A DNA stretch of 64,000 nucleotides from an uncultured Alphaproteobacteria bacterium. Lineage in GTDB: Bacteria; Pseudomonadota; Alphaproteobacteria; HIMB59; GCA-002718135. The stretch is from assembly GCA_902540265.1 (NCBI GenBank), contig CACBLW010000001.1, positions 66,687 to 130,686 on the forward strand, read 5' to 3'. Every line of letters begins with the position of its first letter. Position 1 is the stretch's first letter. This document shows positions 38,713 to 56,699 of the stretch, piece after piece. The notes beneath the pieces were generated by a model, which worked only from the letters and a program-made list of their open reading frames with translations, ran no database searches and was not told the origin of the DNA. The translations under genes and the position numbers were made by a program.

Positions 38713-38726
38713 CAGTAGATAAGAAT

Positions 38727-39620: not shown

Positions 39621-40576
39621 TAATAATGAACCCTCTTCTCAATGACATATCTTTGGAAAAACGTTAACACAAGAATAAATCCAATAAAGACAACAGTGAT
39701 TGCTGCACCGATACTTGTTAAGTTTTGTTGAATAGCTTTTTCAAAGATTGCATACATCATGACATATGTTGTTTTTGATGGACCACCTTTAGTAAGTATT
39801 TCGATAGTATCAAATACCTGAAATGTTCTAATGGTAGTAATAGTCACAACAAACAACGTTGTTGGACCAAGCATTGGCCATGTAACAAGTTTAAATTGCT
39901 CCCATGTAGATTTAGCACCATCCATTTCTGCAGCTTGGTATAACTCTCTTGGTATACTTGTTAAGCCAGCTAAATATAAAACCATGTTAAAACCAAAAGC
40001 CTGCCAAATTCCTATGAAACATACTGTCCAAATCGCAGTATTTTTTTGCTTTAACCAATATGGAAAATCCATGTTGTTTGCACATGCTACAGCATACCAA
40101 CTTTCTTGTGAGTCTACCCATGGCAACCAATGAAAACCAAGAATGAATTCCCTAACTCCCCCACACCCATTTGCTAAAAAACTATTTACAATTCCTAATG
40201 TTGGATGAAGAGTAAATTCCCATGCAATTGCCATTGCAAGAAGAGTTGCCATAACTGGAAGAAAGAAAATTGTTTTATATATATCAGCGCCAAATCTTAG
40301 TGAATTTAAGAGCATAGCAGCACATAATCCAAGTACAACAGAAATTGGAACGACAACAATAACATACGTCGCTGTGGCCCAAATCATTTTGACATATGTT
40401 TTTCGATTGAACATTTTGTCATAATTTTCTAGTCCAACCCACTCGAATGTTTTGTTTCCTAAATTATAGTCAGTAAAAGAAATTCCTCCTGCAAGAAAAA
40501 GAGGAAAGATTAAAATAATTATCATCAGTATGATTGCTGGTGCAATAAACCATATGTGAGCTTTTGAATTATGCAT
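39620..40576 (-). CDS. CUT1-family ABC permease (UgpA/MalF-like)
   Basis: 318 aa with the EAA loop QAAEMDGAKSTWEQFKLVTWPML. Confidence 0.85.
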   Translation of the reverse strand: MHNSKAHIWFIAPAIILMIIILIFPLFLAGGISFTDYNLGNKTFEWVGLENYDKMFNRKTYVKMIWATATYVIVVVPISVVLGLCAAMLLNSLRFGADIYKTIFFLPVMATLLAMAIAWEFTLHPTLGIVNSFLANGCGGVREFILGFHWLPWVDSQESWYAVACANNMDFPYWLKQKNTAIWTVCFIGIWQAFGFNMVLYLAGLTSIPRELYQAAEMDGAKSTWEQFKLVTWPMLGPTTLFVVTITTIRTFQVFDTIEILTKGGPSKTTYVMMYAIFEKAIQQNLTSIGAAITVVFIGFILVLTFFQRYVIEKRVHY

Positions 40577-41702
40577 TAGTAAATTGAACTCTCATTCCTA
40601 CTTGATTAAATAGTAATGCTTTATCTGAAACTCTTTTAATATTCACACTAGAACCGTTTGAAATTTGGTGTGTCAATTGTGGCAAGCCCCTTACAATTAT
40701 TTTATTTGAACCGTCTTCAATATTTACATGAAAGAAAATATCTGAACCTAAATTTTCTCTATATGCAACTGTTCCACTAAATGTATTTTCATTACTTTCA
40801 TTTGTAATTTCTAAATGTTCTGGTCGAATACCAATATGTAAATCTGTATTACTTTCAGAACTTTTTCTTTTTAAATTAACGTTGAGAAAACTTACTGTCC
40901 CACTTGAGTCCGAAGTTCCTTTAAATATATTTATTTTTGGACTTCCAACAAACTGAGCCACACTTAATGAGGAAGGATTGTCATATACTTCTTGAGGTGT
41001 ATCAAGTTGTAATAAATTTCCATCAATCATAACAGCCATTCTAGAAGACATAGTTAATGCTTCTGCTTGATCATGTGTAACGTACACAAAAGTAGTTTTA
41101 AGTGAATTATGAAGTTCAGATAGTTCAGATCGCATGTGAACTCTCAAAGCAGCATCTAAATTTGAAAGAGGTTCATCCATTAAAAAGGCAACAGGCTCTC
41201 TAACCATAGCACGACCAAGAGCAACTCTTTGTCTTTGACCACCTGACAATTGTCCAGGTTTTCTATCTAATAGTTCTGAAATTTTTAGAGTTTCAGAAGT
41301 TTTATTTACTAATTGATTTATAGATTCTGTTTTCTCTTTTTTGCTTGGTGAAAAATTACCAATTAAGGGAAGTCTTTCAAATGCATTATAATCTCTAAGT
41401 CTTAATGGAGTTTCCAAATTTCTTCTTACTGTAAGATGAGGATAAAGAGCATATGACTGGAATACCATTGCCAAATCTCTTTCACTGGCTCTAACTCTAT
41501 TTACATTTTTATTATCTATTAATACATCACCTGAAGTCTGCTGTTCCAATCCTGCAATTATTCTAAGTAATGTAGATTTACCACAACCAGATGGACCAAC
41601 TAACGTTAAGAATTCTCCATCGTTTATATCAACATTCAAATTATTCAGTACTTGGGTAGACCCAAATGACTTTGAAATATTTTTAAGTGATATTGTCCCC
41701 AC
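40569..41702 (-). CDS. ABC ATPase, UgpC/MalK type with C-terminal regulatory domain
   Basis: 377 aa with GPSGCGKST, LSGGQRQRV and FLMDEPLSNLD motifs. It has a GTG start with a GGGGGA RBS. Confidence 0.9.
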   Translation of the reverse strand: MGTISLKNISKSFGSTQVLNNLNVDINDGEFLTLVGPSGCGKSTLLRIIAGLEQQTSGDVLIDNKNVNRVRASERDLAMVFQSYALYPHLTVRRNLETPLRLRDYNAFERLPLIGNFSPSKKEKTESINQLVNKTSETLKISELLDRKPGQLSGGQRQRVALGRAMVREPVAFLMDEPLSNLDAALRVHMRSELSELHNSLKTTFVYVTHDQAEALTMSSRMAVMIDGNLLQLDTPQEVYDNPSSLSVAQFVGSPKINIFKGTSDSSGTVSFLNVNLKRKSSESNTDLHIGIRPEHLEITNESNENTFSGTVAYRENLGSDIFFHVNIEDGSNKIIVRGLPQLTHQISNGSSVNIKRVSDKALLFNQVGMRVQFTNA

Positions 41703-41878: not shown

Positions 41879-43120
41879 GTGTCCGATAATTTAGAAATTA
41901 ATAAAAGAGAATATCCAAGCTCTTTCTCAAAAACTGCTATTGTTATATGCCTTGATGGTAGTCAAAAAGAGTATCTCGAAGAAGCATCAAAATCTAATCT
42001 TACACCAAATCTTGATAAATTAATTGCAAGTGGTGAAAACCTACTTGTTCACAGCGCTATTCCAAGTTTTACAAATCCAAATAACATTTCGATTGTAACA
42101 GGCCAACCAAGTTCTGTACACGGTATATGCGGAAACTTCTTTTATACACCTGAGACGGGTGAAGAAGTAATGATGAATGACCCAAAATATATGCGAGCAC
42201 CAACTATTTTTGAAAAATTTTACAATTCTGGTTCTAAAATTGCTCTTGTTACTGCAAAAGACAAGTTGAGAACACTTTTAGGAAACGGATTAAGTTTTGA
42301 TGATGAGAGAGCTATTTGTTTTTCTGCTGAAAAATCTGATCAAGCAACAAAAGATCTCAATGGTATAGATAATGTAAACGATTGGTTGGGGATGCCAGTT
42401 CCAGAAGTATATTCTGAAGGACTTTCTGAATTTGTAATGGCTGCAGGCGTAAAACTTCTTGAGGAGTTTAAACCAAATATTATGTATTTATCGACTACGG
42501 ATTATATTCAACACAAATATGCACCGGGAAATGAAACAGCAAATAAATTTTATGCAATGTTTGATAAATATATTGGACTTTTAAATAAGGAGAATGTTTC
42601 TATAATCATCACAGCAGATCACGGAATGAAACCAAAATCAAAAGAAGATGGTTCACCTAATGCAATATTTTTACAAGATTATTTAGATAAAAAATTTGAA
42701 CCAAACATGGCTAAAGTCATCCTACCAATTACAGATCCATATGTCGTTCATCATGGTTCACTTGGTTCTTTTGCAACAATTTATTTAGAAGACAAGAGCA
42801 GGGTAGATTCAGTTGTAAATGCTATTAAAGAAATAAAAGATATAGAAGTTGTTTTAACAAAAGATGAAGGATGCTCTACTTATAATTTACCTCCTGATAG
42901 AATGGGGGATATTATATGTATGTCTTCAGAATTTATGACTATTGGTTCATCGGAAGATAAACACAATCTTTCTGGATTAAATGAACCTTTACGTTCTCAT
43001 GGAGGACTCCATGAAAGAGAAGTTCCATTCATATCAAATTTAAAATTACAAAACTTAGATACTAGAAAACAATTATATAACTATGATGCATTTTATTATG
43101 CAATAAATGGAGCCCTATGA
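41879..43120 (+). CDS. phnA: Phosphonoacetate hydrolase
   Basis: 413 aa. The N-terminal region ([53 protein letters not shown]) closely matches my recollection of the characterised Pseudomonas fluorescens 23F PhnA. Confidence 0.9.
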
Positions 43121-44559
43121 TGCACAAAAAAATGATTAATGAAGCAATGCGTATTGCTGGAGAAAAAGTTACTTCAGATAAAACAATAAATGTTGAGTAC
43201 CCTTTTACAGGTGAAGTAATCGGAACTGTTCCTGCCGGTACTGTAGAGCATGCAAGAAAGGCTTTAGATATTGCTGCAAATTACCAACCTAAACTTACAA
43301 GATACGAGAGACAAAAAATTCTTCAAACTGCTGCAGAAGTACTTGTTAAAAGAAAAGAAGAAATTTCTGATATTATTACTTTAGAACTTGGTATTTCAAA
43401 ACAAGATTCTTTATACGAAGTAGGAAGAGCTTTTGATGTCTTTTCTTTAACGGCTCAACTTTGTATTCTTGATGATGGAGAAATATTTTCTTGTGATTTA
43501 ACTCCACATGGAAAAGCGAGAAAAATATTTACCATAAGAGAGCCCTTAACGGCAATTTCAGCAATCACTCCATTTAATCACCCTTTGAATATGGTAGCGC
43601 ATAAAATTGCTCCTTCAATTGCAACTAATAATTGTACAGTATGTAAGCAGACAGAATTAACACCTTTAACAGCAATGGTACTCGCTGATGTTTTATATGA
43701 AGCAGGTCTGCCACCAGAAATGTTTTCAGTTGTAACTGGATGGCCTCAAGACATTGGATCAGAAATGATCAAAAATCCAAATATTGATCTCATTACTTTT
43801 ACAGGTAGTGTAGGTGTAGGAAAATTAATTGCTGAACAAGCTGGATACAAAAGAACAGTTCTTGAGCTAGGTGGTAATGATCCATTAATTGTTTTAAATG
43901 ACTTAGATGCTGATGATCTTAAAAAAGCTGTTGAGCTAGCTGTTACGGGAGCAACGAAAAATTCTGGTCAACGTTGTACAGCTGTTAAAAGAATACTGGT
44001 TCAAGAATCTATTGCAGATCAATTTGTTGAAATGGCTCTTGAGCGTGCTAAGAAAATTAAATTTGGTGATCCTATGAATATGGAAACAGACTTAGGTACA
44101 GTTGTTAATGCTCAAGCTGCAGAACTTTTTGATAAAAGAGTTTCTATGGCTGAAGAAGACGGTGCAAAAATTTTATATCACCCTGGAAGAAAGGGTGCTT
44201 TGTTACCTCCAATAGTTGTAGATCATGTTGATCCTAAAAGTGAATTAGTTTTAGAAGAAACATTTGGTCCAGTTATCCCAATCATTCGTGTGCCTAATGA
44301 CGATGAAGCTGTAATGAAAATATCTAATTCAACCGCATTCGGATTATCATCTGGTGTATGTACAAATAACTTCATGCGAGCAAAAAAATATATTCAAGGT
44401 TTAAATGTTGGCACTGTAAATATTTGGGAGGTTCCAGGTTATAGAATTGAAATGTCTCCTTTTGGAGGAATTAAAGATTCAGGTCTTGGTTACAAAGAGG
44501 GTGTTATTGAAGCAATGAAAAGTTTTACTAATGTAAAAACCTTTTCGCTACCTTGGTAA
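43117..44559 (+). CDS. phnY: Aldehyde dehydrogenase, phosphonoacetaldehyde dehydrogenase-like
   Basis: 480 aa ALDH (ELGGNDP, catalytic GQRCTA, EETFGPV). It overlaps the phnA stop by 4 nt. The substrate is inferred from context. Confidence 0.8.
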
Positions 44560-44695: not shown

Positions 44696-45949
44696 ATGAA
44701 AAAATTAATTACAGGATTGGCTGCCGTATTAGCTTTTGGTTTTTATGGTTCTGTTAATTCAGCTAAGTCTATTGAAATAGAAGTAGCTTATCCTTATTCA
44801 GGATTATTCGATGTAACGTTTCAAGCTATTATGCCAGAGTTTGAAAAAGCACATCCAGATATTCAAGTTAAATTTAGAGCAACTTATGAAAACTATGAGG
44901 ATGCAACTGCAACAATCTTCAGAGAGTCTACTTCAGGTAATTTACCAGATGTAACAATGCAAGGTCTTAACAGACAAGCACCTCTAGTTGACAAAGGTAT
45001 TGCTAAGTCTTTAGAGCCATTTATTGCAAAAGAAGCTGCTTTTGAAAAAGATGGTTACCATTCTGCTATGTTAAGTCTTTCAACATTCGGTGGTGAAGTT
45101 TATGGATTACCATTTTCTGTATCAACGCCAGTTGGATATTATAATATGGATTTATTAGCTGAAGCAGGTGTAAATAGTATTCCAACTAACTGGGACGAAG
45201 TTATTGCAGCATGTAATAAATTGGAAGCAGCAGGTAAAGGAACTCTATACTTTGGTTGGAACATCACAGGTAACTGGTTCCACCAAGCATTAATGCACAC
45301 TCAGAATGTTCCAATGGTTAAAGATGGAGCTGTAAATATGGGTGGTGATGCAGGACTTGCAACGTTAGAGCAAATGAAAGCAATCATGAGCGGATGTAAT
45401 ATGCCAAACTATTCAATTGCTGATGGTCAAGCTGCGTTTAACGCAGGTACTATTGGTATGATGTTCTGGTCTACTTCAAGCTTGGGTTCAGTTAATGCTG
45501 CAAAGGCAGACTTTGTTTTAAAAACTGCACCATTCCCTGGAATGGCTGGAGTTAACAATGGAACACCAGCAAGATTACCAGCAGGTGGAAACGCTGCAAT
45601 GTTAGTGTCTACATCTGATGATCCAGCAAGAGTTGATGCTGCATGGACTTTCTTAAAGTTCATTACATCAGGTATCGGTGCTGCATTAGTTGCTGAAACA
45701 ACTGGATATGTTCCACCAAACAAAGCAGCGAATGAATTATTAGGAGATTTCTATAGTAAAAACCCTAATAAACTTACTGCTGTTGAACAACTTCCACTTC
45801 TTGCAGATTGGTTTGCATATCCTGGAGAAAATGGATTAGCTGTTACACAGGTAATCTATGATTACACAGAAGAAATTGCTACAGGCGACGCTGATGATAT
45901 GGGTGATCTCCAAGAAGAAATGATGGAAGAAATAAACGATCTTATGTAA
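44696..45949 (+). CDS. Periplasmic substrate-binding protein, family 1 (UgpB/CUT1-like)
   Basis: 417 aa with a signal peptide, a GGAGGG RBS and its own strong terminator. It is the likely partner of the divergently encoded permeases and ATPase. Confidence 0.85.
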   Translation: MKKLITGLAAVLAFGFYGSVNSAKSIEIEVAYPYSGLFDVTFQAIMPEFEKAHPDIQVKFRATYENYEDATATIFRESTSGNLPDVTMQGLNRQAPLVDKGIAKSLEPFIAKEAAFEKDGYHSAMLSLSTFGGEVYGLPFSVSTPVGYYNMDLLAEAGVNSIPTNWDEVIAACNKLEAAGKGTLYFGWNITGNWFHQALMHTQNVPMVKDGAVNMGGDAGLATLEQMKAIMSGCNMPNYSIADGQAAFNAGTIGMMFWSTSSLGSVNAAKADFVLKTAPFPGMAGVNNGTPARLPAGGNAAMLVSTSDDPARVDAAWTFLKFITSGIGAALVAETTGYVPPNKAANELLGDFYSKNPNKLTAVEQLPLLADWFAYPGENGLAVTQVIYDYTEEIATGDADDMGDLQEEMMEEINDLM

Positions 45950-45980
45950 TTTGAGATTATTTATTATTAACTTTTTATTA

Positions 45981-46012
45981 CAGCGGCTTTATAAAAGCCG
46001 CTGTTTTATTTT
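45981..46012 (+). terminator. Rho-independent terminator after the binding-protein gene
   Basis: CAGCGGCTTT (45981-45990) pairs with AAAGCCGCTG (45994-46003) around a 3-nt loop, followed by TTTTATTTT. Confidence 0.75.
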
Positions 46013-46036
46013 AAATTTAAATGGGAGTAAAAATAG

Positions 46037-47116
46037 ATGCCTCTTAAAACAACTACAATAGGTGCTTATCCAAAACCGAAACAAACACCTATTCAAGATT
46101 GGTTTTTAGGGACAAAATCAGAAGAAGAGAGAAAAGCGTCAAAAGGATTATTATCAAATTGGTCACCTGGCGCATATGAAAAAGCATTAGAGTCTGCAGG
46201 TGCAGATGCTGAAAAATTATTTTTAGCAGCAATTAAAGAAGTTATAACTGATCAAGTAAATGCGGGTATTGATGTTCCAACAGATGGAGAAGTCAGACGT
46301 GAGAGTTACGTATTATATCAATGTCGATTTTTAAATGGTGTAAGTTTTAAGGAAGTTACACATAAGTCAGTAAGACAAGGCGCGTTCGAAGCTGACCTTC
46401 CAACTATTGTTGCACCAATTTCAAGTAAAGAAATACGTATGTATTTAGACTGGAAGAGTGCACAACAATTTACAAAAAACCCAGTTAAAATTACGCTACC
46501 TGGACCAATGACAATTACAGATTCAATTGCTAACAATTACTATGATGACATGAAAAAACTTGGTTTTGATTTAGCATTAGCTCTCAATAAAGAAATTAAG
46601 GCACTTGTGGATGCAGGTTGTCAGTATATTCAAATTGATGAACCAGTATTTGCTAGAAAACCCGATGAAGCTCATTCATATGGTATGGAAAATTTAGAAA
46701 GAATGATGCATGGTATTCCTAAAGAAGTGCAACGCGTTTGCCATATTTGTTGTGGTTATCCTAACTCATTAGACTCAGAAGGGTATAAAAAGGCTGATCT
46801 AGATGCTTATGATAGAATTGCATCACTGGTAGATGATTCAACTATTGATGAAGTATCTTTAGAAGATTCACATAGGCATAATGATTTAAATCTTTTAGAA
46901 AAATTTACTAAAACAAAAGTAATTTTTGGATTTATTGATATTGCAAAAAGTAGAATGGAGTCTGTTGAAGAGGTAAGAGTTCGTATCAAAGATTCACTTG
47001 AACATATTGATGAACACCGCTTAATAGCTGCACCAGATTGTGGTTTAGGTTTCTTTACACGAGAACAAGCAATTGAGAAAATGACAATTCTAACTAAAGC
47101 GGCAAAATCAATTTAA
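46037..47116 (+). CDS. Cobalamin-independent methionine-synthase-II-like Zn alkyltransferase (MetE C-terminal-domain family)
   Basis: 359 aa. TIGAYPKP, DGEVRRESY and IQIDEP motifs are present. Putative Zn ligands are CHICCGY (HxC) and APDCGLGF. Confidence 0.75.
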   Translation: MPLKTTTIGAYPKPKQTPIQDWFLGTKSEEERKASKGLLSNWSPGAYEKALESAGADAEKLFLAAIKEVITDQVNAGIDVPTDGEVRRESYVLYQCRFLNGVSFKEVTHKSVRQGAFEADLPTIVAPISSKEIRMYLDWKSAQQFTKNPVKITLPGPMTITDSIANNYYDDMKKLGFDLALALNKEIKALVDAGCQYIQIDEPVFARKPDEAHSYGMENLERMMHGIPKEVQRVCHICCGYPNSLDSEGYKKADLDAYDRIASLVDDSTIDEVSLEDSHRHNDLNLLEKFTKTKVIFGFIDIAKSRMESVEEVRVRIKDSLEHIDEHRLIAAPDCGLGFFTREQAIEKMTILTKAAKSI

Positions 47117-47120
47117 GGTA

Positions 47121-48233
47121 ATGTGGAATTATTTTAATCCTGTTGAAATTATCTTTGGAGAAAATAGATTTACAGAAGTACATGATGCTCTTAAAAATAA
47201 GAACTACATCATAATCACTCATCCAGAGGAAATTTTTAAAAAATATAGCGATGAATTAAAATCTTCTTCAAATCCACCTTTATCCATTATGACCGATGTT
47301 CAGCCTAATCCAGATTATAAGGATATTTTAGAACTACAAAATAAATTTTCTTCAATCAATGAATCGGTAGATTATATTTTAGCTATAGGTGGTGGCTCTG
47401 TTACAGACACAGCTAAAGCAATTGCTGCATTTAAAGATAAACAAGAATATCTAACAGATTTCGTTCGTAATAAGAAAAATCCAAGAGTCGAAAATCCAAT
47501 CAAGATTATTGCAATACCTACAACTTCAGGAACATCAAGTGAGCTTACGTGTTGGGCCACAATTTGGGATAAAGAAAAAAACAATAAATTATCTTTGGCG
47601 CATAAATCTCTTTATGCAGAAAAAGCAATTATCGATCCATCTATTATGGTTGATAAACCTTTAGGCTTGACCATTTCAACAGGTTTAGATGCTCTCTCTC
47701 ATTCAATGGAAAGTATTTGGAATATTAATGCAAACCCAATTTCTGCTTCTCATGCAATACAAGCATCAAAATTAGTATTAGAAAATTTACCACTTCTCGC
47801 TAAAGATTTAAGAAGCGTTGAATTACGTTCAAACATTGCACTGGCATGCGTTCATGCTGGCTTAGCGTTTTCCAATACAAAAACTGCTATTGCGCACAAT
47901 CTATCATACCCTGTGACGCTCAATTACGGCATTCAACATGGTATTGCTTGTTCATTTACTTTACCCATGATTACTAAAAGTATGGTTGGAATTGATAGTG
48001 TCGCTGAAGAAAGACTAAAGTTAATTTTTAACGATAACCTTGAAAATGCCGCAAATCATCTGAGTGAATTTATGCGTTCTTTAGAGGTTCCTCTTAACTT
48101 AAATGAAATAAAAGTTCCTGTTCAAGAATGGAATAATATAGTAGATGATGCGTTTTTAGGGGAACGAGGTAAAAACTTTATTGGCAATAAAGAAGCCTTC
48201 ATCTCTTCTGCTAAATCAATGGGACTTTATTAG
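47121..48233 (+). CDS. Iron-containing (group III) alcohol dehydrogenase; candidate phosphonoacetaldehyde reductase / 2-hydroxyethylphosphonate dehydrogenase
   Basis: 370 aa. Motifs FNPVEIIFGEN, AIGGGSVTDTAK, GLDALSHSME and AIAHNLSYP are present. The substrate is inferred from the phosphonate context only. Confidence 0.8.
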   Translation: MWNYFNPVEIIFGENRFTEVHDALKNKNYIIITHPEEIFKKYSDELKSSSNPPLSIMTDVQPNPDYKDILELQNKFSSINESVDYILAIGGGSVTDTAKAIAAFKDKQEYLTDFVRNKKNPRVENPIKIIAIPTTSGTSSELTCWATIWDKEKNNKLSLAHKSLYAEKAIIDPSIMVDKPLGLTISTGLDALSHSMESIWNINANPISASHAIQASKLVLENLPLLAKDLRSVELRSNIALACVHAGLAFSNTKTAIAHNLSYPVTLNYGIQHGIACSFTLPMITKSMVGIDSVAEERLKLIFNDNLENAANHLSEFMRSLEVPLNLNEIKVPVQEWNNIVDDAFLGERGKNFIGNKEAFISSAKSMGLY

Positions 48234-48235
48234 TA

Positions 48236-49342
48236 ATGAAAAAAAATTTCAGGTTTTATGATAACAGACAAAAATACTTATTATTTGTCACAACAACAAA
48301 TGAAAAAAATCAAATTGCTGATGCGATACGCCCTCACATAAATAAAATTAAACCTCAAAAACCTGGCATAAAAATATTTGATGCTGGTATGGGTGATGGT
48401 TCCTTACTTATGAATGTTATGCGTCAGTGCCACGAGGCTAAGCCTAACGTACCTTTATTAGTTTGCACAAAAGAAATAAGCATAGAAGATGTAAGATTAG
48501 GTTTAGAAAAATTACCCGATAGGTTTGTTGAACATAAGAATACGGTTTTTGTCATTTCAAATCTACACTACGCTGAAGCTGCAAACCTAAAATCAAAAAA
48601 TGAAGTTAAACAGAAAAAAATTAATTGGAATATTATTAAATTAAAAGGAGATACCTCTCTTGAATTTGCCCAACAATTAAGAAAACAAAATGAATTTTTA
48701 GAAAAAAAATGGAATATAGAAATTAATAAAAAGTCAGGTAACCATACTTATAAAGAGCCTTCAGTCATGGTTATCTACCGCGAAGATCAAGAATTTAATG
48801 TAAATGAATTAATACCTACCAAAAAAAAATCAGATAATAAATTTGATCTTATTATTGCTTCACAGCCTTATCGTTCAAGAATCACAGCAGAAAAGAAATC
48901 AAAATATGTCATCGAACCAATGATTAGAGCGTTAAAATCAAAAGGGAAATTATTAACTATTCATGCTTCAGGAAAAGATCCTGCTAATGAAATAATTCGT
49001 AAAATTTGGCCAAAAGAGGACCCATTTCCTTCTCTTGGAAATAGTATCATTTCTTATCTTAAGAAAAATTTAGATAAAGATTTATTAAGAAGATTATCTT
49101 TTGGAGAAAAAAGAATTATTAAATGTAAATTGAGAGCTCTACCAACAGAAATCAGCGGAGGTATAGCGACATCATTAGTTTTTTCTGCTTGGAATGCCTC
49201 CATATATGTCAATCAAATGGATGACGACAAAGTAATGAAAGTAGAAAAAACTAAAAACTATGAAAAAATTGTTCAAAACATTGTTGCTAAAAATAAAGGT
49301 CTTTATTTTAACAATGAAATATTTGTAATCGAAAAAAAATAA
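48236..49342 (+). CDS. Hypothetical protein with Rossmann methyltransferase-like motif
   Basis: 368 aa. IFDAGMGDGS resembles SAM motif I, and DLIIASQPY and GKLLTIH resemble later motifs, with a long insertion between them. I recognise no characterised homolog. Confidence 0.45.
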   Translation: MKKNFRFYDNRQKYLLFVTTTNEKNQIADAIRPHINKIKPQKPGIKIFDAGMGDGSLLMNVMRQCHEAKPNVPLLVCTKEISIEDVRLGLEKLPDRFVEHKNTVFVISNLHYAEAANLKSKNEVKQKKINWNIIKLKGDTSLEFAQQLRKQNEFLEKKWNIEINKKSGNHTYKEPSVMVIYREDQEFNVNELIPTKKKSDNKFDLIIASQPYRSRITAEKKSKYVIEPMIRALKSKGKLLTIHASGKDPANEIIRKIWPKEDPFPSLGNSIISYLKKNLDKDLLRRLSFGEKRIIKCKLRALPTEISGGIATSLVFSAWNASIYVNQMDDDKVMKVEKTKNYEKIVQNIVAKNKGLYFNNEIFVIEKK

Positions 49343-49346
49343 TTTT

Positions 49347-50135
49347 TTATTTAAACCAATTAACTTCTGTTTTTAAAAAATCCTCTGTATGAATAATTAA
49401 GGCGTCAGATCGAATTATTGCAACATTATAATTTGTATCTGTATTAGCCGTTCCTAAACGATATTCATTTGAAAAGTTAGGTATTAGAGGAGACCAAGTA
49501 CTTCTTGGGGAGGAAAAAGTAATACCACAATAAGAGCCAGAACTTGTAATGTGTTGATGACCAAAAAAAATATGTTTTATTATATTATTATTTTTAGTTA
49601 AAATTTGTTGAAACTCTTTTTTTTGTTGTAATCCTATTCCATCACTTTCCTCTTTTACTAATGCCAGTGGATTATGATGCATAAAGATGTACGTATCCGT
49701 ATTAGTCTTACTTAAAATATTATTTAACCATTCTTGCCTCTCTTCACAATAATGTCCTTGGTGAGTGTTAATCAGATTAGTATCTATAAAAATTAAACGT
49801 TTATTATCTATATCCTTAAAGTATTGAATAAATCCATTTGGATCGGTTTCAATATCAGGAAAGTTTATTTTAAATTCATCTCTGTTATCATGATTACCTA
49901 TAATTAGTTGAGGATTTAAATTCTTCGGCAGACCTGCTTCATCAATTATTTTTAAAAATAACTGATAAGAATCTTTATCACCTAAGTCTGTAATATCACC
50001 TGTGATGGCAAATAAATCTGCATCACCATGATTATTTTTTATATGAGTTAATGCTTTTTTAAATTTACTGACAGGATCTATGCCATGAATCTTATCAATA
50101 TAAATATGAGGGTCTGAAAGGTGAATAATTTTCAT
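49347..50135 (-). CDS. Calcineurin-like metallophosphoesterase / phosphodiesterase
   Basis: 262 aa. Motifs HLSDPH, GDITDLGD, GNHDNR, MHHNP and GHQH are present. Confidence 0.8.
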   Translation of the reverse strand: MKIIHLSDPHIYIDKIHGIDPVSKFKKALTHIKNNHGDADLFAITGDITDLGDKDSYQLFLKIIDEAGLPKNLNPQLIIGNHDNRDEFKINFPDIETDPNGFIQYFKDIDNKRLIFIDTNLINTHQGHYCEERQEWLNNILSKTNTDTYIFMHHNPLALVKEESDGIGLQQKKEFQQILTKNNNIIKHIFFGHQHITSSGSYCGITFSSPRSTWSPLIPNFSNEYRLGTANTDTNYNVAIIRSDALIIHTEDFLKTEVNWFK

Positions 50136-50155
50136 TATTAAATATAAATTTATAA

Positions 50156-50788
50156 TTAGATCGCAGTTTTAAAATAAATATACTTATTAAATTCCTCTTT
50201 TAAGTCGATGCTAACTCTTGCATGTACTTTACCTTGTTTTCCTTGAAACGATTGTTTTTCTGTAACTGGAAACACCCCTTCATGCCAAATATTTGGATGA
50301 ATATACAAACCTTTTGATCCGTCACAATAAAATGCTTTAAAATGTTCTGGTTCAATGTCGTCTGTAGGTAAGGCTAAAGGACAAATAAATGGTTTATTTT
50401 CTTCAGGAAAGAAAAGCTGACCTCCATCAGGATGATAATTTGCATGCCATAAAAAAATTTTTGTTGGATCTGAATATTTATCTTTTTGTAATTCTTGATC
50501 AGGATTATTGGCATAACCCAGTATATATTTTCCATCTACCTCATAATCGCTCTTATGTTGAACAGCATTATTTTGTCCATAAAGAACATCACCTTGCCAC
50601 CAGGTATCAAAAGAACCTTCGGTAGTTCCACCTTCATTACCAGTTCCCTCTTCTATGTCGCGCCATCCTTGTTTTGGCCAAGTAACAATTTCAATATCAC
50701 TATTTTCAAAACTATCGATTAAATATCCGTATCCCTTAAGATTTTCATTTGTTGCTTTAACTAATGGTATTTCAATTTCTTTTGTCAT
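50156..50788 (-). CDS. Ureidoglycolate-lyase (AllA)-like cupin-fold protein
   Basis: 210 aa. HPDGGQLFFP..KPFICPLAL..FKAFYCDGSKGLYIHPNIWHEGVF parallels the AllA-family core as I remember it. The function here is unknown. Confidence 0.55.
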   Translation of the reverse strand: MTKEIEIPLVKATNENLKGYGYLIDSFENSDIEIVTWPKQGWRDIEEGTGNEGGTTEGSFDTWWQGDVLYGQNNAVQHKSDYEVDGKYILGYANNPDQELQKDKYSDPTKIFLWHANYHPDGGQLFFPEENKPFICPLALPTDDIEPEHFKAFYCDGSKGLYIHPNIWHEGVFPVTEKQSFQGKQGKVHARVSIDLKEEFNKYIYFKTAI

Positions 50789-50795
50789 TATTTTG

Positions 50796-51893
50796 TTAGT
50801 TTAATGTTAATCCCAATTCAGTAACGACTTCTTTTACAGCTTTTATCGTATCCATCATGTCTTGTTCATCTAAATTACCAATACACCCAATTCTAAAAGT
50901 TTCTGCCACTGTTAGTTTTCCTGGATAAATTAAAAAATCTTTTTCACTAAGAGCATTATAAAATTTCTCAAAGTTAAATTTAGGATCATTAGGTTGTTTA
51001 AACGTAATAATAATTGGTGCTTGTAAATTATCAGGAAGTAGTTGCTCAAATCCCAACTCTTTCATTCCATTACAAATAATTTCACAATTTTTTTTATATC
51101 TTTTACCTCTTCCTTTTACACCGCCTTGTTCTTTATGTTCTTCAATAGCTTGGTTGAATGCAGCTAATACGTGTGTTGGAGGTGTAAATCGCCATTGTTT
51201 ATTTTTTTCCATTGCTTGCCATTGATCATACAAGTCTAGACTTAGTGAGTGACTATTGCCTTTTGCATTTTGAATAACTTCATTTTTAACAAGAATGAAA
51301 CCAACACCTGGCACACCTTCTAAGCATTTGTTTGATGAAGCGGCTACAGCATCAAAAGTAATTGTTTTAGAACTTAAGGGTAATGCACCAAAGGCACTCA
51401 TTGCATCGATGAATAACGATAAATTTTTCCCCTCAACCAATTTTGCAATGTCTTCAATAGGATTTAAAATACCCGATGTCGTTTCACAATATACAGCAAA
51501 GACGTGTGTTAAGTTGTTGCTATCAATTAAGTCTTCAATTTTATTGATGTCATGTACTTCATTTTCAGCAACTTCATATTCAATAAAATCTCTCCCTAAA
51601 TATGTGCACATTTTTTTCATTCTTTGTCCGTAAGCACCATTGATCAGAATCAGAATTTTAGAATCTTTTTGAGTAAGAGAGCTTACCATCGACTCTACGG
51701 CAAAAGTTCCACTTCCCTGCATTGGAACACATTGATATTTATCTTCACCGTCTATTAATTTAACAAGGGAATCTCTAATTGATGCATTGAGATCAATAAA
51801 TTTTGTATCTCTCGAACCCCAATCATGAAGCATAGCCTCTTTTGTTGACATCGATGTCGTGAGAGGACCAGGGGTTAATAATTTTTTATCCAT
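50796..51893 (-). CDS. phnW: 2-aminoethylphosphonate--pyruvate transaminase
   Basis: 365 aa. The N-terminus LLTPGPLTTSMSTKEAMLHDWGSRD is typical of PhnW. A class V aminotransferase core with an SNKCLEG Lys region is present. Confidence 0.9.
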   Translation of the reverse strand: MDKKLLTPGPLTTSMSTKEAMLHDWGSRDTKFIDLNASIRDSLVKLIDGEDKYQCVPMQGSGTFAVESMVSSLTQKDSKILILINGAYGQRMKKMCTYLGRDFIEYEVAENEVHDINKIEDLIDSNNLTHVFAVYCETTSGILNPIEDIAKLVEGKNLSLFIDAMSAFGALPLSSKTITFDAVAASSNKCLEGVPGVGFILVKNEVIQNAKGNSHSLSLDLYDQWQAMEKNKQWRFTPPTHVLAAFNQAIEEHKEQGGVKGRGKRYKKNCEIICNGMKELGFEQLLPDNLQAPIIITFKQPNDPKFNFEKFYNALSEKDFLIYPGKLTVAETFRIGCIGNLDEQDMMDTIKAVKEVVTELGLTLN

Positions 51894-51981
51894 TAAATAT
51901 TTACTTAATAAATATTATTATAAATTTGATCAATCTTATTAAAGTTGGAATTGAATTTATTTTCTAATAAGTTAATTATAA

Positions 51982-52557
51982 ATGAAAATGGAAGAAAATA
52001 TTGTAGACTATCTCTTACATCTTTTGAAAACAAAAGGTGCTGATATTCAATATGGTAATGAGGATGTGACACAGCTTGAGCACGCACTCCAATGCGCTGA
52101 ACTTGCTGAAAAAAATAAATTACCAGGACCAACAATTGCTGCAGCATTACTGCATGATGTTGGCCACCTTATCTATGAGGACGGCGATCCCATTCATGAA
52201 GGGAAAGATGGTCATCATGAAAATTTAGGTGCTGATTTTTTAAAAAAATATTTTGGTGAGGATGTTATTTTACCAATTAGAGCACATGTTGACTCAAAAA
52301 GATATTTATCAAGTGTTGAAGAAGGTTATTATGATAGTCTATCAGAAGCATCGAAACTTTCGTTAAAAGTTCAAGGTGGTCCTTTCACAAAAGAAGAAGC
52401 AGATGCGTTTATAAGCAAACCTTTTATGGATGAAGCAGTAGAGCTTAGAAGATTTGATGATTTAGCAAAAATTCTAGATAAAAAAACTCCCGATGTTGAA
52501 CATTTCCGTCCCTATTTAGAAGAAGCAAGAGAGTCTTTTTTAGCTAAACAAGCGTAA
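51982..52557 (+). CDS. phnZ: HD-domain phosphonate oxygenase-like protein (PhnZ family)
   Basis: 191 aa. QLEHALQCA, AALLHDVGH, HHENLGADFL and HVDSKRYL align with the diiron ligand blocks of PhnZ as I remember them. Confidence 0.75.
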   Translation: MKMEENIVDYLLHLLKTKGADIQYGNEDVTQLEHALQCAELAEKNKLPGPTIAAALLHDVGHLIYEDGDPIHEGKDGHHENLGADFLKKYFGEDVILPIRAHVDSKRYLSSVEEGYYDSLSEASKLSLKVQGGPFTKEEADAFISKPFMDEAVELRRFDDLAKILDKKTPDVEHFRPYLEEARESFLAKQA

Positions 52558-53082
52558 ATGCAATTAAGCAACTATGATTTTATTGACTCTAAGTCATTTG
52601 CAGGAAAAATTATATTAACTTCTTTCCCAGGTCTTAACTCTAATGGTTTATTTGAAGAAACAATTTTAGCAAACGAATTAGAAATATTTAAAAATAATAA
52701 TTGTAGTTCTATTACTTCTTTTGTTGAAGATAGCGAATTTGAAAAATTGTGTGATAAAACTTTGTTTGTCAAAAATATTTATGAACATAAATTACATTGG
52801 TACCATTTACCCATTTATGACATGGGAGCACCAGATAAAGATTTTAAATATAAATGGGAAACAACAAAAGTTTTATTAAAGAACGAATTGATAGATGGTA
52901 AAAATATAGTCTTACATTGTCGTGGAGGAAAAGGAAGAGCTGGCACTATAGCTGCTATTTTACTTGTTGAATTTAATTATGAAAAACAAGAAGCTATTGA
53001 TTTAGTGCGATCAAGAAGAAAAGGAGCTATTGAGTCAAAAATCCAAGAAGATTTTATTTTTTCTTATCGAGCAGTTAATTAA
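52558..53082 (+). CDS. Dual-specificity / PTP-like CX5R phosphatase
   Basis: 174 aa with the active-site loop HCRGGKGRAGT. Its start abuts the phnZ-like stop (TAAATG). Confidence 0.7.
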   Translation: MQLSNYDFIDSKSFAGKIILTSFPGLNSNGLFEETILANELEIFKNNNCSSITSFVEDSEFEKLCDKTLFVKNIYEHKLHWYHLPIYDMGAPDKDFKYKWETTKVLLKNELIDGKNIVLHCRGGKGRAGTIAAILLVEFNYEKQEAIDLVRSRRKGAIESKIQEDFIFSYRAVN

Positions 53083-56621: not shown

Positions 56622-56699
56622 TACTTCTGTAAAAAAAAAATTTAGTTAATGTAATTGAAATAAAATTTTAACAAATTCTTTCTATTATTTATTAATAAA

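What the first reader, a model, noticed from the sequence alone, without database searches (positions are those of the whole stretch)
49347..51893. phnW co-operonic with an AllA-like cupin and a metallophosphoesterase
On the minus strand phnW, the 210-aa ureidoglycolate-lyase-like protein and the calcineurin-type phosphoesterase are separated by 7 and 20 nt. The usual PhnW partner PhnX is absent. AllA-type enzymes cleave a C-N bond next to a hydroxylated carbon, and phosphoesterases cleave P-O esters. Together they could liberate or trim conjugated AEP (phosphonolipid or glycan head groups, or N-substituted or hydroxylated AEP) before transamination. I know of no description of this combination.
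Basis: inference. Interest (0 to 1): 0.55.

Follow-up and report, generated by a model that had tools for sequence, protein, structure and literature searches.

The report
Unknown cupin partner of phosphonate breakdown genes
In an abundant ocean bacterium, the gene that starts breakdown of the natural phosphonate 2-aminoethylphosphonate is always followed by an uncharacterised metal-barrel protein that also sits in phosphonate gene clusters of unrelated bacteria, so it is probably a missing helper enzyme of marine phosphorus recycling.

Summary
phnW (50796-51893), a 210-aa AllA-fold cupin (50156-50788) and a metallophosphoesterase (49347-50135) lie head to tail on the minus strand, 7 and 20 nt apart.

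They are part of a larger SAR11-type phosphonate island. It also encodes PhnA, PhnY (the dehydrogenase), a PhnZ-like oxygenase, a PhpC-type alcohol dehydrogenase and a Ugp-like ABC importer. PhnW therefore does not lack a downstream route.

The cupin is not the cell's ureidoglycolate lyase. A canonical AllA sits in a purine operon on another contig.

The cupin belongs to a distinct, sparse subfamily.
- In the window's own GTDB family it lies directly downstream of phnW in 93 of 95 genomes that have phnW.
- In 17 of 44 distant loci it sits beside aminoethylphosphonate-type genes. These include eight tmpA-tmpB-cupin operons, and loci with PhnW, PbfA, PhnS2 or TIGR03364.

The esterase link is narrower: 72 of 100 genomes in that family have it adjacent, and 0 of 44 loci elsewhere. 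It resembles GpdQ.

I read the cupin as an uncharacterised ancillary metalloenzyme of aminophosphonate catabolism, with unknown chemistry. I read the esterase as a phosphonate-ester hydrolase. I found no description in print.

The parts
50796..51893 (-). phnW, 2-aminoethylphosphonate--pyruvate transaminase; first gene of the operon
   Evidence: NF010006 511.5 bits (cut-off 296) and TIGR02326 459.6 (cut-off 400.8). ORF.
50156..50788 (-). 210-aa AllA-fold metallocupin of a distinct subfamily; function unknown. Proposed ancillary enzyme of aminophosphonate catabolism.
   Evidence: PF04115 matches residues 119-182 only. AlphaFold model pLDDT 93.2. AllA 1yqc_A Z 16.0, rmsd 2.3 A over 140 residues. 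Invariant H119, G160, W168, H169 and near-invariant D121, Q124, Q185, H189, E199, R43. Synteny.
49347..50135 (-). 262-aa cytoplasmic class-III-type metallophosphoesterase (GpdQ/Rv0805-like). Proposed phosphodiester or phosphonate-monoester hydrolase.
   Evidence: PF00149 62.5 bits. SpdA model 175.1 bits, below its cut-off of 400. PDB 2zo9/2dxl/3d03 and Rv0805 at E 6e-13. Motifs DxH, GD, GNH, H and GHxH read in the translation.
51894..51981 (.). 88-nt divergent intergenic region between phnW and the phnZ-like gene; presumed shared control region (inferred)
   Evidence: Sequence. The promoter-like hits here are not above the shuffled expectation.
51982..52557 (+). PhnZ-like HD-domain phosphonate oxygenase with no PhnY*-type hydroxylase gene beside it
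   Evidence: TIGR03276 201.8 bits, just under its cut-off of 214.6. None of the 5 PhyH and 2 TauD matches of the genome lies on contig C1.
52558..53082 (+). Cys-based dual-specificity-phosphatase-like protein, immediately following phnZ
   Evidence: PF22784 48.7 bits. A CX5R motif is present in the translation. It accompanies PhnZ in the SAR11-type loci.
41879..44559 (+). phnA (41879-43120) and phnY dehydrogenase (43117-44559): the route that consumes the PhnW product
   Evidence: TIGR02335 467.5 bits (cut-off 407.55). TIGR03250 798.2 bits (cut-off 635.65).
44696..49342 (+). Operon of a solute-binding protein, a MetE-like protein, a PhpC-type Fe-alcohol dehydrogenase and an unknown 368-aa protein; convergent with the esterase gene (4 nt apart)
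   Evidence: SBP_bac_1/8; PF01717 122.4 bits; TIGR03405 364.4 bits (cut-off 423.7); no family for the 368-aa protein. PhpC-type enzymes are HEP dehydrogenases according to PMC13576164 (abstract and passages).
37864..41702 (-). EamA/phn_DUF6 membrane protein plus UgpE-, UgpA- and UgpC-like ABC importer components

Best explanation
What it is. Window 49347-51893 (minus strand) is a three-gene operon, phnW-cupin-metallophosphoesterase. It lies inside a roughly 17-kb phosphonate and phosphorus-scavenging island of a SAR11-type genome.

Shown:
- PhnW is genuine. Its product, phosphonoacetaldehyde, has a complete downstream route in the island (PhnY dehydrogenase, then PhnA).
- The cupin has the AllA fold but is a separate subfamily. 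The genome keeps a canonical AllA in its purine operon.
- The cupin subfamily is recurrently embedded in clusters for 2-aminoethylphosphonate-type compounds in several unrelated lineages.

Inferred, cupin. It is a divalent-metal enzyme that acts as an ancillary 'phosphonate breakdown factor'. It would convert an AEP-related natural compound, most likely one hydroxylated at the carbon next to phosphorus and/or substituted on nitrogen, into something that PhnW, PhnZ/TmpB or PbfA can take.

Mechanism I commit to. The cupin performs a metal-assisted cleavage at a hydroxylated carbon, as in its two characterised relatives: AllA (Ni-dependent elimination) and DsyD (oxidative decarboxylation of a 2-hydroxy acid). 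I give about 0.3 to a redox-neutral elimination and about 0.2 to an O2-dependent reaction, which is listed separately as a rival.

Inferred, esterase. It is a cytoplasmic GpdQ-like phosphodiesterase or phosphonate-monoester hydrolase. It would free the phosphonate from esters, such as deacylated phosphonolipid or glycan head groups, brought in by the Ugp-like ABC importer.
For: Operon. Gaps of 7 and 20 nt and no internal terminator-like site.

Pathway genes score above their curated cut-offs.

The cupin is not AllA.
- Own-genome AllA: 125.3 bits, full length, next to allantoicase, puuE, uraD, hiuH and xdhABC. The cupin scores 38.8 bits over model positions 76-139.
- Profile comparison aligns only 64 columns at 22% identity.

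Fold. AllA 1yqc Z 16.0; DUF4867 9gyy Z 10.4; all others 8.2 or below.

Conserved candidate metal site. H119 and H169 align with AllA histidines. AllA is Ni-dependent (PMC3793230, passages). DUF4867 binds Fe/Zn through 2His-2Glu (PMC11968277, passages).

Synteny in the window's own GTDB family of 116 genomes.
- PhnW in 95 and the cupin in 100.
- The cupin lies directly downstream of PhnW in 93 of the 95 with both. The other 2 are split over contigs.
- No genome has PhnW without the cupin.

The 36 SAR11-type loci L004-L039. PhnW is upstream in all 32 that hold enough upstream DNA.

The 44 distant loci L040-L083. 17 carry aminophosphonate genes beside the cupin.
- 10 with TmpB (335 bits, cut-off 300), of which 8 also have TmpA (585 bits, cut-off 400).
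- 5 with PhnW, of which 2 also have PbfA (672 bits, cut-off 525).
- 1 with PhnS2 (508 bits, cut-off 393).
- 1 with a PhnX-like protein plus TIGR03364 (465 bits, cut-off 285).

On a quick tree the phosphonate-linked cupins fall in several separate places.

Sample of 251 genomes from the family of G516. 12 of the 13 genomes with the cupin have TmpB, against 24 of the 238 without it.

Esterase.
- Motifs intact and closest solved relatives as above.
- Adjacent in 72 of 100 cupin genomes of the own family. In 14 more it lies 3.2 or 6.2 kb downstream, the same spacings at which seven SAR11-type loci carry an inserted Ugp-like ABC cassette.

RNA libraries. Contigs from 4 of 4 seawater metatranscriptomes of 4 studies bridge both gene junctions. 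This is weak evidence.
Against: - No substrate, product or metal has been tested, so the chemistry is inference from family precedent only.
- 27 of the 44 distant loci show no phosphonate gene in the DNA held. Three of these contigs are under 7 kb.
- In the 251-genome sample 24 of 36 TmpB genomes lack the cupin. Only 4 of the 12 genomes with both have them adjacent. Other copies lie by purL, glutaredoxin, ptsP or cyanophycin synthetase genes. The cupin is therefore dispensable for TmpAB and may have a more general role.
- A five-locus clade (four Sneathiella and one relative) places it with a carbamoylase-type M20 amidase (690 bits, cut-off 452). One locus each adds a dihydropyrimidinase (602 bits, cut-off 393) or a CN-hydrolase. 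That is a ureide-like context.
- Every known step of the PhnW-PhnY-PhnA, PhnZ and TmpAB routes already has an enzyme, so no obligatory gap calls for the cupin.
- The esterase scores below the SpdA and CpdA equivalog cut-offs. It could be a cyclic-nucleotide or ordinary glycerophosphodiester esterase of the phosphate-starvation response.
- RNA-library contigs also bridge the divergent phnW/phnZ gap and the convergent 368-aa/esterase junction, so they do not show one transcript.
- Related genomes are not independent observations.
Confidence: 0.5

Rival explanations
1. The cupin is an O2-dependent non-haem-iron oxygenase. It either hydroxylates an AEP-type phosphonate at C1, supplying the PhnZ/TmpB-type HD oxygenase in place of the missing PhnY*/TmpA-type hydroxylase, or itself cleaves a 1-hydroxyphosphonate oxidatively. 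The latter would be the phosphonate counterpart of the DsyD reaction on a 2-hydroxy acid.
For: - The family has a near-invariant Asp two residues after the first metal His (H119-P-D121), where the AllA sequences seen here have Leu or Tyr. With H169 this gives an HxD...H pattern.
- The PF04115 domain DsyD carries out decarboxylation of dimethylsulfoniohydroxybutyrate to DMSP with no added cofactor (PMC11306096, passages).
- HD oxygenase genes lack a neighbouring hydroxylase wherever the cupin is their neighbour in the SAR11-type loci, in L044, L061 and L080.
- No PhyH or TauD match lies on the island contig.
- At genome level the cupin co-occurs with TmpB in 12 of 13 genomes.
Against: - TmpA is present in 8 of the 10 TmpB-cupin loci, so no hydroxylase is missing there.
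- The cupin also accompanies PhnW without any HD oxygenase in L040, L060, L075 and L079.
- No Pfam oxygenase family matches it.
- The strongest structural relative is a lyase.
- The genome has 5 PhyH and 2 TauD genes elsewhere that could serve PhnZ.
Confidence: 0.2
2. The cupin acts on carboxylate compounds, for example beta-alanine or isoserine-type or other small hydroxy acids, or has a general housekeeping role. It would travel with aminophosphonate genes only because those substrates are structural analogues or share regulation.
For: - AEP is the phosphonate analogue of beta-alanine (established chemistry).
- The Sneathiella-type loci pair the cupin with an M20 carbamoylase-type amidase; one locus adds a dihydropyrimidinase.
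- Many copies sit by housekeeping genes.
- Both characterised relatives act on 2-hydroxy carboxylates (PMC3793230 and PMC11306096, passages).
Against: - Adjacency to phnW in 93 of 95 genomes, and no phnW without the cupin, in the own family.
- Repeated independent placement in PhnW, TmpAB, PbfA, PhnS2 and TIGR03364 clusters.
- The Sneathiella context is a single clade.
Confidence: 0.1
3. The cupin is a second, divergent ureidoglycolate or ureide lyase used for nitrogen scavenging, and its position next to phnW has no phosphonate meaning.
For: - Pfam PF04115 match above the gathering score.
- AllA fold at Z 16.
- Carbamoylase and hydantoinase neighbours in the Sneathiella clade.
- SAR11 uses purine and allantoin catabolism (bioRxiv 10.1101/2024.02.09.579562, passages).
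Against: - A canonical AllA already sits in the purine operon of the same genome.
- All eight AllA equivalog models score 21.7-33 bits against cut-offs of 160-315.
- Only 64 columns align.
- The N-terminal about 110 residues and the C-terminal conserved Q185, H189 and E199 have no AllA counterpart in the alignments.
- Synteny with phosphonate genes across phyla.
Confidence: 0.07
4. The cupin is not an enzyme of the pathway. It would be a small-molecule- or metal-binding accessory protein, such as a sensor, a chaperone for the iron enzymes, or a storage or buffering protein.
For: - The related DUF4867 proteins sit in sulfoglycolysis clusters in which no enzymatic step is missing, and no activity could be found for them (PMC11968277, passages).
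- Likewise no step is obviously missing here.
Against: - Strict conservation of a candidate catalytic metal site plus several polar residues.
- Association with PhnW-only clusters that contain no iron enzyme.
- No DNA-binding or signalling domain.
Confidence: 0.08

Closest known systems
AllA, Ni-dependent ureidoglycolate lyase (PF04115; PDB 1yqc, 1xsq, 1xsr, 2bdr)
   Same: Same barrel fold: Z 16.0, rmsd 2.3 A over 140 of 160 residues; Foldseek E 4e-9 to 2e-7. The H-P-x-x-x-Q and W-H motifs are shared.
   Different: - 14-19% identity in the structure-based alignments.
- Only 64 profile columns align.
- About 50 residues longer, with a family-specific N-terminal part and conserved C-terminal Q185, H189 and E199.
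- Asp at +2 of the first His, and Asn where the AllA sequences seen here have Glu at -2.
- Phosphonate rather than purine gene context, and the same genome has a true AllA.
DsyD domain of DsyGD (dimethylsulfoniohydroxybutyrate decarboxylase; PMC11306096)
   Same: A PF04115-type domain with a function other than ureide cleavage, acting on a 2-hydroxy compound that carries an onium group. That is formally similar to hydroxy-trimethyl-AEP.
   Different: DsyD is fused to a methyltransferase and works in DMSP synthesis. I could not compare sequences because no DsyGD sequence was in hand. Single-domain relatives tested in that paper were inactive.
DUF4867 proteins SftX/SqvB of sulfoglycolysis clusters (PDB 9gyy; PMC11968277)
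   Same: Second-best structural match (Z 10.4). A metal-binding cupin that recurs in catabolic clusters for an organo-heteroatom compound where no step is missing.
   Different: Different family (10-13% identity), 2His-2Glu metal site, sulfosugar context, function also unknown.
Ancillary 'phosphonate breakdown factors' PbfA, PbfB/C/D, PbfF and PbfG (Peracchi group: PMC8154272 cited only; PMC10590968, PMC12366243 and PMC13576164 searched for terms)
   Same: The same genomic logic: non-essential genes that recur in subsets of AEP clusters and widen the substrate range. PbfA and a TIGR03364 oxidoreductase are direct neighbours of the cupin in some loci.
   Different: Unrelated folds (PLP, FAD, NAD and Zn enzymes). 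None of the three papers searched contains 'cupin', 'ureidoglycolate' or 'phosphoesterase'.
tmpA-tmpB operon for trimethyl-AEP (Leisingera caerulea)
   Same: Eight loci, including two Leisingera and three Ruegeria, have TmpA and TmpB above the equivalog cut-offs, followed on the same strand by the cupin.
   Different: The review PMC10574752 (passage) describes a two-gene operon, and a third gene is not mentioned. In my sample 24 of 36 TmpB genomes lack the cupin.
GpdQ (Enterobacter aerogenes glycerophosphodiesterase) and Rv0805, class III metallophosphodiesterases
   Same: Best solved relatives of the 262-aa protein at E 6e-13 over residues 2-212; all metal-binding motifs present. That the 2zo9/2dxl/3d03 entries are GpdQ, that GpdQ is encoded with a Ugp-like uptake system and that it hydrolyses phosphonate monoesters are all recalled, not from a call.
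   Different: Low similarity (about 52 bits). Below the NCBIfam SpdA and CpdA equivalog cut-offs. Substrate untested.

Membership tests
Ureidoglycolate lyase AllA (PF04115 / NCBIfam PRK03606 and PRK13395 models) | Full-length match above the curated equivalog or subfamily cut-off | tested here: not met
   Eight NCBIfam models give 21.7-33 bits against cut-offs of 160-315. Pfam matches 64 of 162 positions at 39.9 bits, above the Pfam gathering score of 23.
Ureidoglycolate lyase AllA | AllA barrel fold | tested here: met
   1yqc_A Z 16.0, rmsd 2.3 A, 140 residues aligned. Foldseek probability 1.00.
Ureidoglycolate lyase AllA | Purine or allantoin catabolic gene context | tested here: not met
   The window context is phosphonate genes. 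The canonical AllA with allantoicase, puuE, uraD, hiuH and xdhABC is on contig C13. Caveat: the Sneathiella clade has carbamoylase and hydantoinase neighbours.
Ureidoglycolate lyase AllA | Ni-dependent release of urea from (S)-ureidoglycolate | not testable with these tools
   Needs an enzyme assay (conditions in PMC3793230).
PhnW (2-aminoethylphosphonate--pyruvate transaminase) | Equivalog-level HMM score | tested here: met
   NF010006 511.5 bits (cut-off 296), TIGR03301 465.7 (cut-off 360.8), TIGR02326 459.6 (cut-off 400.8).
PhnW-PhnY-PhnA hydrolytic AEP pathway | All three enzymes encoded | tested here: met
   PhnY TIGR03250 798.2 bits (cut-off 635.65) and PhnA TIGR02335 467.5 bits (cut-off 407.55), within 10 kb of phnW.
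PhnW-PhnX phosphonatase pathway | PhnX present | tested here: not met
   Best TIGR01422 match in the 77.67%-complete genome is 30.7 bits against a cut-off of 220.
PhnY*/PhnZ oxidative AEP pathway | HD oxygenase above cut-off together with a 2-oxoglutarate hydroxylase gene | tested here: inconclusive
   PhnZ-like protein scores 201.8 bits against a cut-off of 214.6. No PhyH or TauD gene on contig C1; 5 PhyH and 2 TauD matches on other contigs.
Class III metallophosphodiesterase (GpdQ / CpdA / Rv0805 / SpdA) | Metallophosphoesterase motifs and Pfam membership | tested here: met
   PF00149 62.5 bits (cut-off 21.5). DxH, GD, GNH, H and GHxH read in the translation. PDB relatives at E 6e-13.
Class III metallophosphodiesterase, named equivalogs SpdA and CpdA | Equivalog cut-off | tested here: not met
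   SpdA 175.1 bits against 400; CpdA 63.5 bits against 225.
Fe(II)/2-oxoglutarate or other cupin oxygenases | 2-His-1-carboxylate site and a match to an oxygenase family | tested here: inconclusive
   An HxD...H pattern is conserved, but no oxygenase Pfam family matches and structural matches to oxygenases are Z 7.2 or below. Coordinates of the model were not available to check the geometry.

The most novel reading that the evidence does not exclude
The cupin is a new kind of carbon-phosphorus-pathway metalloenzyme used by the most abundant marine heterotrophs. It would be either an AllA-fold oxygenase that replaces the PhnY*/TmpA hydroxylases, or that itself cleaves 1-hydroxyphosphonates oxidatively. 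Alternatively it would be a lyase that expels the group attached to a hydroxylated carbon next to phosphorus. If so, a large share of oceanic aminophosphonate turnover passes through an enzyme class not yet described, and the 'two-gene' tmpAB system has a functional third component.
Probability: 0.2. Interest if true: 0.85.

Novelty: new variant of a known kind. Interest (0 to 1): 0.62.

Why it matters
- 2-Aminoethylphosphonate mineralisation is described as a major oceanic phosphorus flux, and Pelagibacterales carry a large share of marine phnA/W/Y/Z genes (PMC8316502 and PMC9381506, passages).
- In the window's SAR11 family no genome searched has phnW without this cupin. The cupin family is abundant in marine data: 4152 proteins at E <= 0.001, with clusters of up to 1509 members.
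- An unassigned, strictly conserved gene inside the best-studied phosphonate pathways means one of two things. Either a substrate class is being overlooked, such as esterified, hydroxylated or N-methylated AEP relatives, or a catalytic step is misassigned.
- It is directly testable. The protein is small and soluble-looking, roseobacter hosts with tmpA-tmpB-cupin are genetically tractable, and the candidate substrates have been synthesised by the groups that defined PbfA to PbfG.
- It also warns against counting this gene as 'ureidoglycolate lyase' in purine or nitrogen budgets of SAR11.

Tried and rejected
- Fused forms as Rosetta-stone hints. The 'longer' search gave only 7 proteins. A further fused form (P0235) came. 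The partners are GNAT (one cluster of 148 members), AHSA1/SRPBCC, glyoxalase, MFS, DNA ligase, a peptidase, and two with an unannotated C-terminal half. No phosphonate enzyme is among them, so this was not informative.
- ESM Atlas: only 'putative ureidoglycolate hydrolase' clusters, one mostly eukaryotic. No functional lead.
- Promoter and terminator scan. 23 promoter-like sites against 19.7 +/- 5.1 expected, and 1 terminator-like site against 1.2 expected, lying outside the operon. No support for or against internal signals.
- Metatranscriptome contigs. They bridge the operon junctions, but also the divergent and convergent junctions, and DNA may be present in such libraries. I do not count this as proof of co-transcription or of expression level.
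- Cupin copies not adjacent to tmpB in the 251-genome sample. The neighbours I could name by Pfam are housekeeping genes or, once, DAO-EamA-PbfA-PhnW. No common theme emerged. ORF calling in these high-GC loci was noisy, and I scanned 32 of the 64 candidate ORFs.
- 'The cupin is the isofunctional replacement of PbfA': rejected, because PbfA is its neighbour in L075, L079 and L127.
- 'The cupin is required for TmpAB': rejected, because 24 of 36 TmpB genomes lack it.
- The careful tree search did not finish in 300 s, so only the quick tree is reported.

Full report
**1. Observation.**

Searches give three consecutive minus-strand ORFs at the stated coordinates:
- 50796..51893, 365 aa.
- 50156..50788, 210 aa.
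- 49347..50135, 262 aa.

They are separated by 7 nt (50789-50795) and 20 nt (50136-50155); the sequence was read. No terminator-like site lies inside the unit. The single one in 48900-52700 lies at 49044-49022, beyond the end of the operon. Promoter-like sites are not above the shuffled expectation.

The downstream end is convergent with a plus-strand gene that stops at 49342, 4 nt away. Upstream, an 88-nt gap (51894-51981) separates phnW from a divergent phnZ-like gene.

**2. What the three proteins are.**

- The first is PhnW: NF010006 511.5 bits against a cut-off of 296.
- The third is a calcineurin-type metallophosphoesterase (PF00149, 62.5 bits).
  - The DxH, GD, GNH, H and GHxH motifs are all visible in the translation, and there is no signal peptide.
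  - Its best solved relatives are entries 2zo9/2dxl/3d03 ('phosphohydrolase') and Rv0805, at E 6e-13. That those entries are GpdQ is my recollection.
  - It stays below the SpdA (175 against 400) and CpdA (63.5 against 225) equivalog cut-offs.
- The middle protein touches PF04115 only over residues 119-182. It scores 21.7-33 bits on eight ureidoglycolate-lyase models with cut-offs of 160-315.

**3. The surroundings change the picture.**

From 37864 to about 54800 the window carries:
- An EamA/phn_DUF6 membrane protein.
- UgpE-, UgpA- and UgpC-like ABC components.
- PhnA (467.5 bits, cut-off 407.55).
- PhnY dehydrogenase (798.2 bits, cut-off 635.65).
- A solute-binding protein.
- A MetE-like protein.
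- A PhpC-type iron alcohol dehydrogenase (TIGR03405, 364.4 bits, cut-off 423.7).
- An unknown 368-aa protein.
- The operon in question.
- A PhnZ-like HD oxygenase (201.8 bits, cut-off 214.6).
- A Cys-based phosphatase-like protein.
- PitA and a PhoU-like protein.

Further on lie lipid-remodelling-type genes and ppk1.

PhnX is indeed not found: the best match is 30.7 bits against 220 in a 77.67%-complete genome. PbfA is not found either: best 218.8 bits against 525. But PhnW feeds PhnY and PhnA, so the pathway is complete.

PhpC-type enzymes oxidise 2-hydroxyethylphosphonate to phosphonoacetaldehyde (PMC13576164, abstract and passages). The island therefore converges several phosphonates on one aldehyde.

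**4. The cupin is not the cell's AllA.**

- The same genome has a canonical AllA of 164 aa (PF04115, 125.3 bits over model positions 5-157). It lies on contig C13, directly after allantoicase and beside puuE, uraD, hiuH and xdhABC.
- A profile of the cupin family aligns with that AllA over only 64 columns at 22% identity.

**5. Fold and conserved residues.**

An AlphaFold model built on 33 family members is confident (pLDDT 93.2, pTM 0.89).

| Structural match | Score |
|---|---|
| AllA 1yqc_A | Z 16.0, rmsd 2.3 A, 140 of 160 residues, 19% identity |
| AllA entries (Foldseek) | E 4e-9 to 2e-7 |
| DUF4867 9gyy | Z 10.4 |
| All others | Z 8.2 or below |

Across relatives of 30-87% identity:
- Invariant: H119, G160, W168, H169.
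- Conserved at 90% or more: R43, D121, Q124, Q185, H189, E199 and others.

H119 and H169 align with histidines of AllA. The Asp at +2 of H119 is family-specific, and the AllA sequences seen have Leu or Tyr there.

Precedents from the literature:
- AllA needs Ni2+ (PMC3793230, passages).
- The DUF4867 structure binds Fe/Zn through 2His-2Glu, and its function is unknown (PMC11968277, passages).
- The PF04115-type DsyD domain converts dimethylsulfoniohydroxybutyrate to DMSP (PMC11306096, passages).

A metal-dependent reaction at a hydroxylated carbon is thus the family precedent. Which reaction occurs here is inference.

**6. Size and spread of the family.**

- 4152 of 4179 candidates at E <= 0.001. 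The best 120 are 68-88% identical, mostly 209-213 aa and from marine metagenomes.
- 713 representatives at 50% clustering with E <= 0.001, of which 391 are at 1e-10 or better.
- at least 585 loci in species genomes. Only the best 80 were returned.
- The family is sparse overall. In an even sample of the window's phylum, 2 of 400 other genomes have a full-length match, and 3 more have weak partial ones.

**7. Synteny close to home.**

| Feature | Count |
|---|---|
| Own GTDB family, genomes searched | 116 |
| PhnW present | 95 |
| Cupin present | 100 |
| Both present | 95 |
| Cupin match directly downstream of PhnW, same strand (spacing -18 to +29 nt) | 93 of 95 |
| Pair split over contigs | 2 of 95 |
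| PhnW without the cupin | 0 |
| Cupin without a PhnW match (3 begin within 301 nt of a contig start) | 5 |
| Neither | 16 |

Among the 36 SAR11-type loci L004-L039, PhnW is upstream in all 32 that hold enough upstream DNA. PhnZ is divergent-adjacent in 28.

The esterase is less constant. Of the 100 cupin genomes:
- 72 have it adjacent.
- 14 have it 3.2 or 6.2 kb downstream on the same strand.
- 1 has only a 38%-identical paralog elsewhere.
- 13 have none found.

At the same 3.2 and 6.2 kb spacings, seven SAR11-type loci carry an opposite-strand Ugp-like ABC cassette between the cupin and the esterase, and there the esterase is only 61-68% identical.

**8. Synteny far from home (loci L040-L083, 44 loci, 51-58% identity).**

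The esterase was found in 0 of 44. The cupin lies beside aminophosphonate genes in 17 of 44.

| Context | Loci | Scores |
|---|---|---|
| TmpB directly upstream, same strand | 10 | 335 bits, cut-off 300 |
| Of these, TmpA in front as well | 8 (L041, L048, L052, L056, L066, L074, L081, L083) | 585 bits, cut-off 400 |
| PhnW within 3.6 kb | 5 (L040, L044, L060, L075, L079) | |
| PbfA beside PhnW | 2 (L075, L079) | 672 bits, cut-off 525 |
| PhnS2-type AEP transporter | 1 (L045) | 508 bits, cut-off 393 |
| PhnX-like protein plus TIGR03364 oxidoreductase | 1 (L054) | 465 bits, cut-off 285 |

L044 repeats the SAR11 gene set (EamA, PhnZ, PhnY, PhnA, PhnW, cupin) in a betaproteobacterium, again without a hydroxylase gene next to PhnZ.

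On a quick tree the phosphonate-linked cupins fall in several separate places. The PhnW label needs at least 3 changes and the TmpB label at least 3. The careful search did not finish.

The other 27 loci show no recognised phosphonate gene in the DNA held.

A five-locus clade, four Sneathiella and one relative, pairs the cupin with an M20 carbamoylase-type amidase (690 bits, cut-off 452). One locus each adds a dihydropyrimidinase (602 bits, cut-off 393) or a CN-hydrolase.

**9. The reverse question in roseobacters.**

In 251 genomes of the family of G516:
- TmpB was found in 36, with 33 above the cut-off.
- The cupin was found in 13.
- 12 of those 13 have TmpB. Among the 238 genomes without the cupin, 24 have it.

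The two genes are adjacent in 4 genomes, far apart on one contig in 3, and on different contigs in 5. Non-adjacent copies lie by purL, glutaredoxin, ptsP, aspartokinase or cyanophycin synthetase genes. One lies near DAO-EamA-PbfA-PhnW.

The cupin is therefore an optional companion of TmpAB, not a required part. Related genomes are not independent, so I give counts and no test.

**10. RNA.**

Fourteen metatranscriptome runs hold 41-53% of the sampled words of 49347-52557. In four runs from four studies, contigs bridge both operon junctions, for example one of 1460 nt over 49387-50846.

Contigs also bridge the divergent phnW/phnZ gap and the convergent junction at 49342/49347. Such libraries may contain DNA. 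I take this only as compatible with expression in seawater.

**11. Interpretation.**

Shown: the operon, its conservation, the identity of PhnW and the downstream route, the AllA fold with a distinct subfamily signature, and the recurrent phosphonate context.

Inferred:
- (a) The cupin is a metal-dependent ancillary enzyme for an AEP-related compound.
  - Nearly every linked cluster contains an enzyme that consumes a 1-hydroxy-2-amino(alkyl)ethylphosphonate (PhnZ, TmpB or PbfA) or one that handles N-methylated AEP (TmpA/B, TIGR03364, DMGDH-like proteins in L040, L075 and L079).
  - I therefore place its substrate among hydroxylated and/or N-substituted AEP relatives.
  - Overall confidence is 0.5. 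Within it I lean slightly to a redox-neutral AllA-type cleavage over an O2-dependent one.
- (b) The esterase frees phosphonates from imported esters. It travels with Ugp-like importers and resembles GpdQ.

Rivals are listed with their odds.

**12. Literature.**

I found no paper that links a ureidoglycolate-lyase-like or cupin gene, or a metallophosphoesterase, to phnW or tmpAB.

Full-text searches:
- 'ureidoglycolate lyase' + phosphonate.
- ureidoglycolate + phnW.
- ureidoglycolate + Pelagibacter + phosphate.
- 'ureidoglycolate lyase' + cupin.
- SAR11 + phnW + phnZ + phnA.
- TmpB + TmpA + phosphonate.

Term look-ups inside PMC13576164, PMC12366243, PMC10590968, PMC10574752, PMC8316502 and PMC9381506 gave no hit for cupin, ureidoglycolate or phosphoesterase.

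I read passages only, not whole texts, and opened no supplements. The cluster tables in the supplements of the Pbf papers may list the gene. Subscription-journal papers, including the original TmpAB report, were not available.

Noticed in passing
L041, L048, L052, L056, L066, L074, L081, L083 (cupin at about 10001-10573 in most): The tmpA-tmpB system for trimethyl-AEP, described in a review as a two-gene operon, is followed on the same strand by this cupin in eight loci, including Leisingera and Ruegeria. In L081 a type I phosphodiesterase/NPP-family gene comes next.
   Followed up: partly
window 51982-53082: The PhnZ-like oxygenase has no hydroxylase gene beside it. It is immediately followed (stop 52557, start 52558) by a Cys-based dual-specificity-phosphatase-like protein with a CX5R motif. 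The pair is conserved in the SAR11-type loci.
   Followed up: partly
window 44696-49342: A plus-strand operon encodes a solute-binding protein, a MetE-like Zn methyltransferase-fold protein, a PhpC-type Fe-alcohol dehydrogenase and a 368-aa protein with no family (weak methyltransferase-like hit at E 9e-4). It travels with the cupin operon in most SAR11-type loci. Its role in phosphonate use is unexplained.
   Followed up: no
L016, L020, L021, L024, L025, L027, L036 (between the cupin and the esterase): The spacer between the cupin and the esterase is a hot spot. Opposite-strand Ugp-like ABC importer cassettes of about 3.2 or 6.2 kb are inserted there, and the esterase then is a 61-68% identical variant divergent from the cassette.
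   Followed up: partly
window 55779-58498 and 58725-60824: An OlsF-like acyltransferase, a second metallophosphoesterase and a GT4 glycosyltransferase, which from recollection resemble the PlcP-Agt lipid-remodelling pair of phosphate-starved marine bacteria, followed by ppk1. The whole region looks like a phosphate-stress island.
   Followed up: no
G000 contig C13, L003 542-13405: A complete purine catabolism operon: tadA-like, xdhC, xdhB, xdhA, hiuH, puuE, uraD, allantoicase and allA, followed by an ABC transporter.
   Followed up: yes
L062, L068, L071, L076, L077: In Sneathiella and a relative the cupin lies with an M20 carbamoylase or allantoate-amidohydrolase-type enzyme. Single loci add an NMT1-type ABC importer, a dihydropyrimidinase or a CN-hydrolase. 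This hints at a ureide or beta-amino-acid-related role in that clade.
   Followed up: partly
P0274 (392 aa), row 3: A cupin-GNAT fusion is represented by a cluster of 148 sequences. A related 204-aa 'ureidoglycolate lyase family' Atlas cluster is 63% eukaryotic, with Nematoda the commonest phylum.
   Followed up: no
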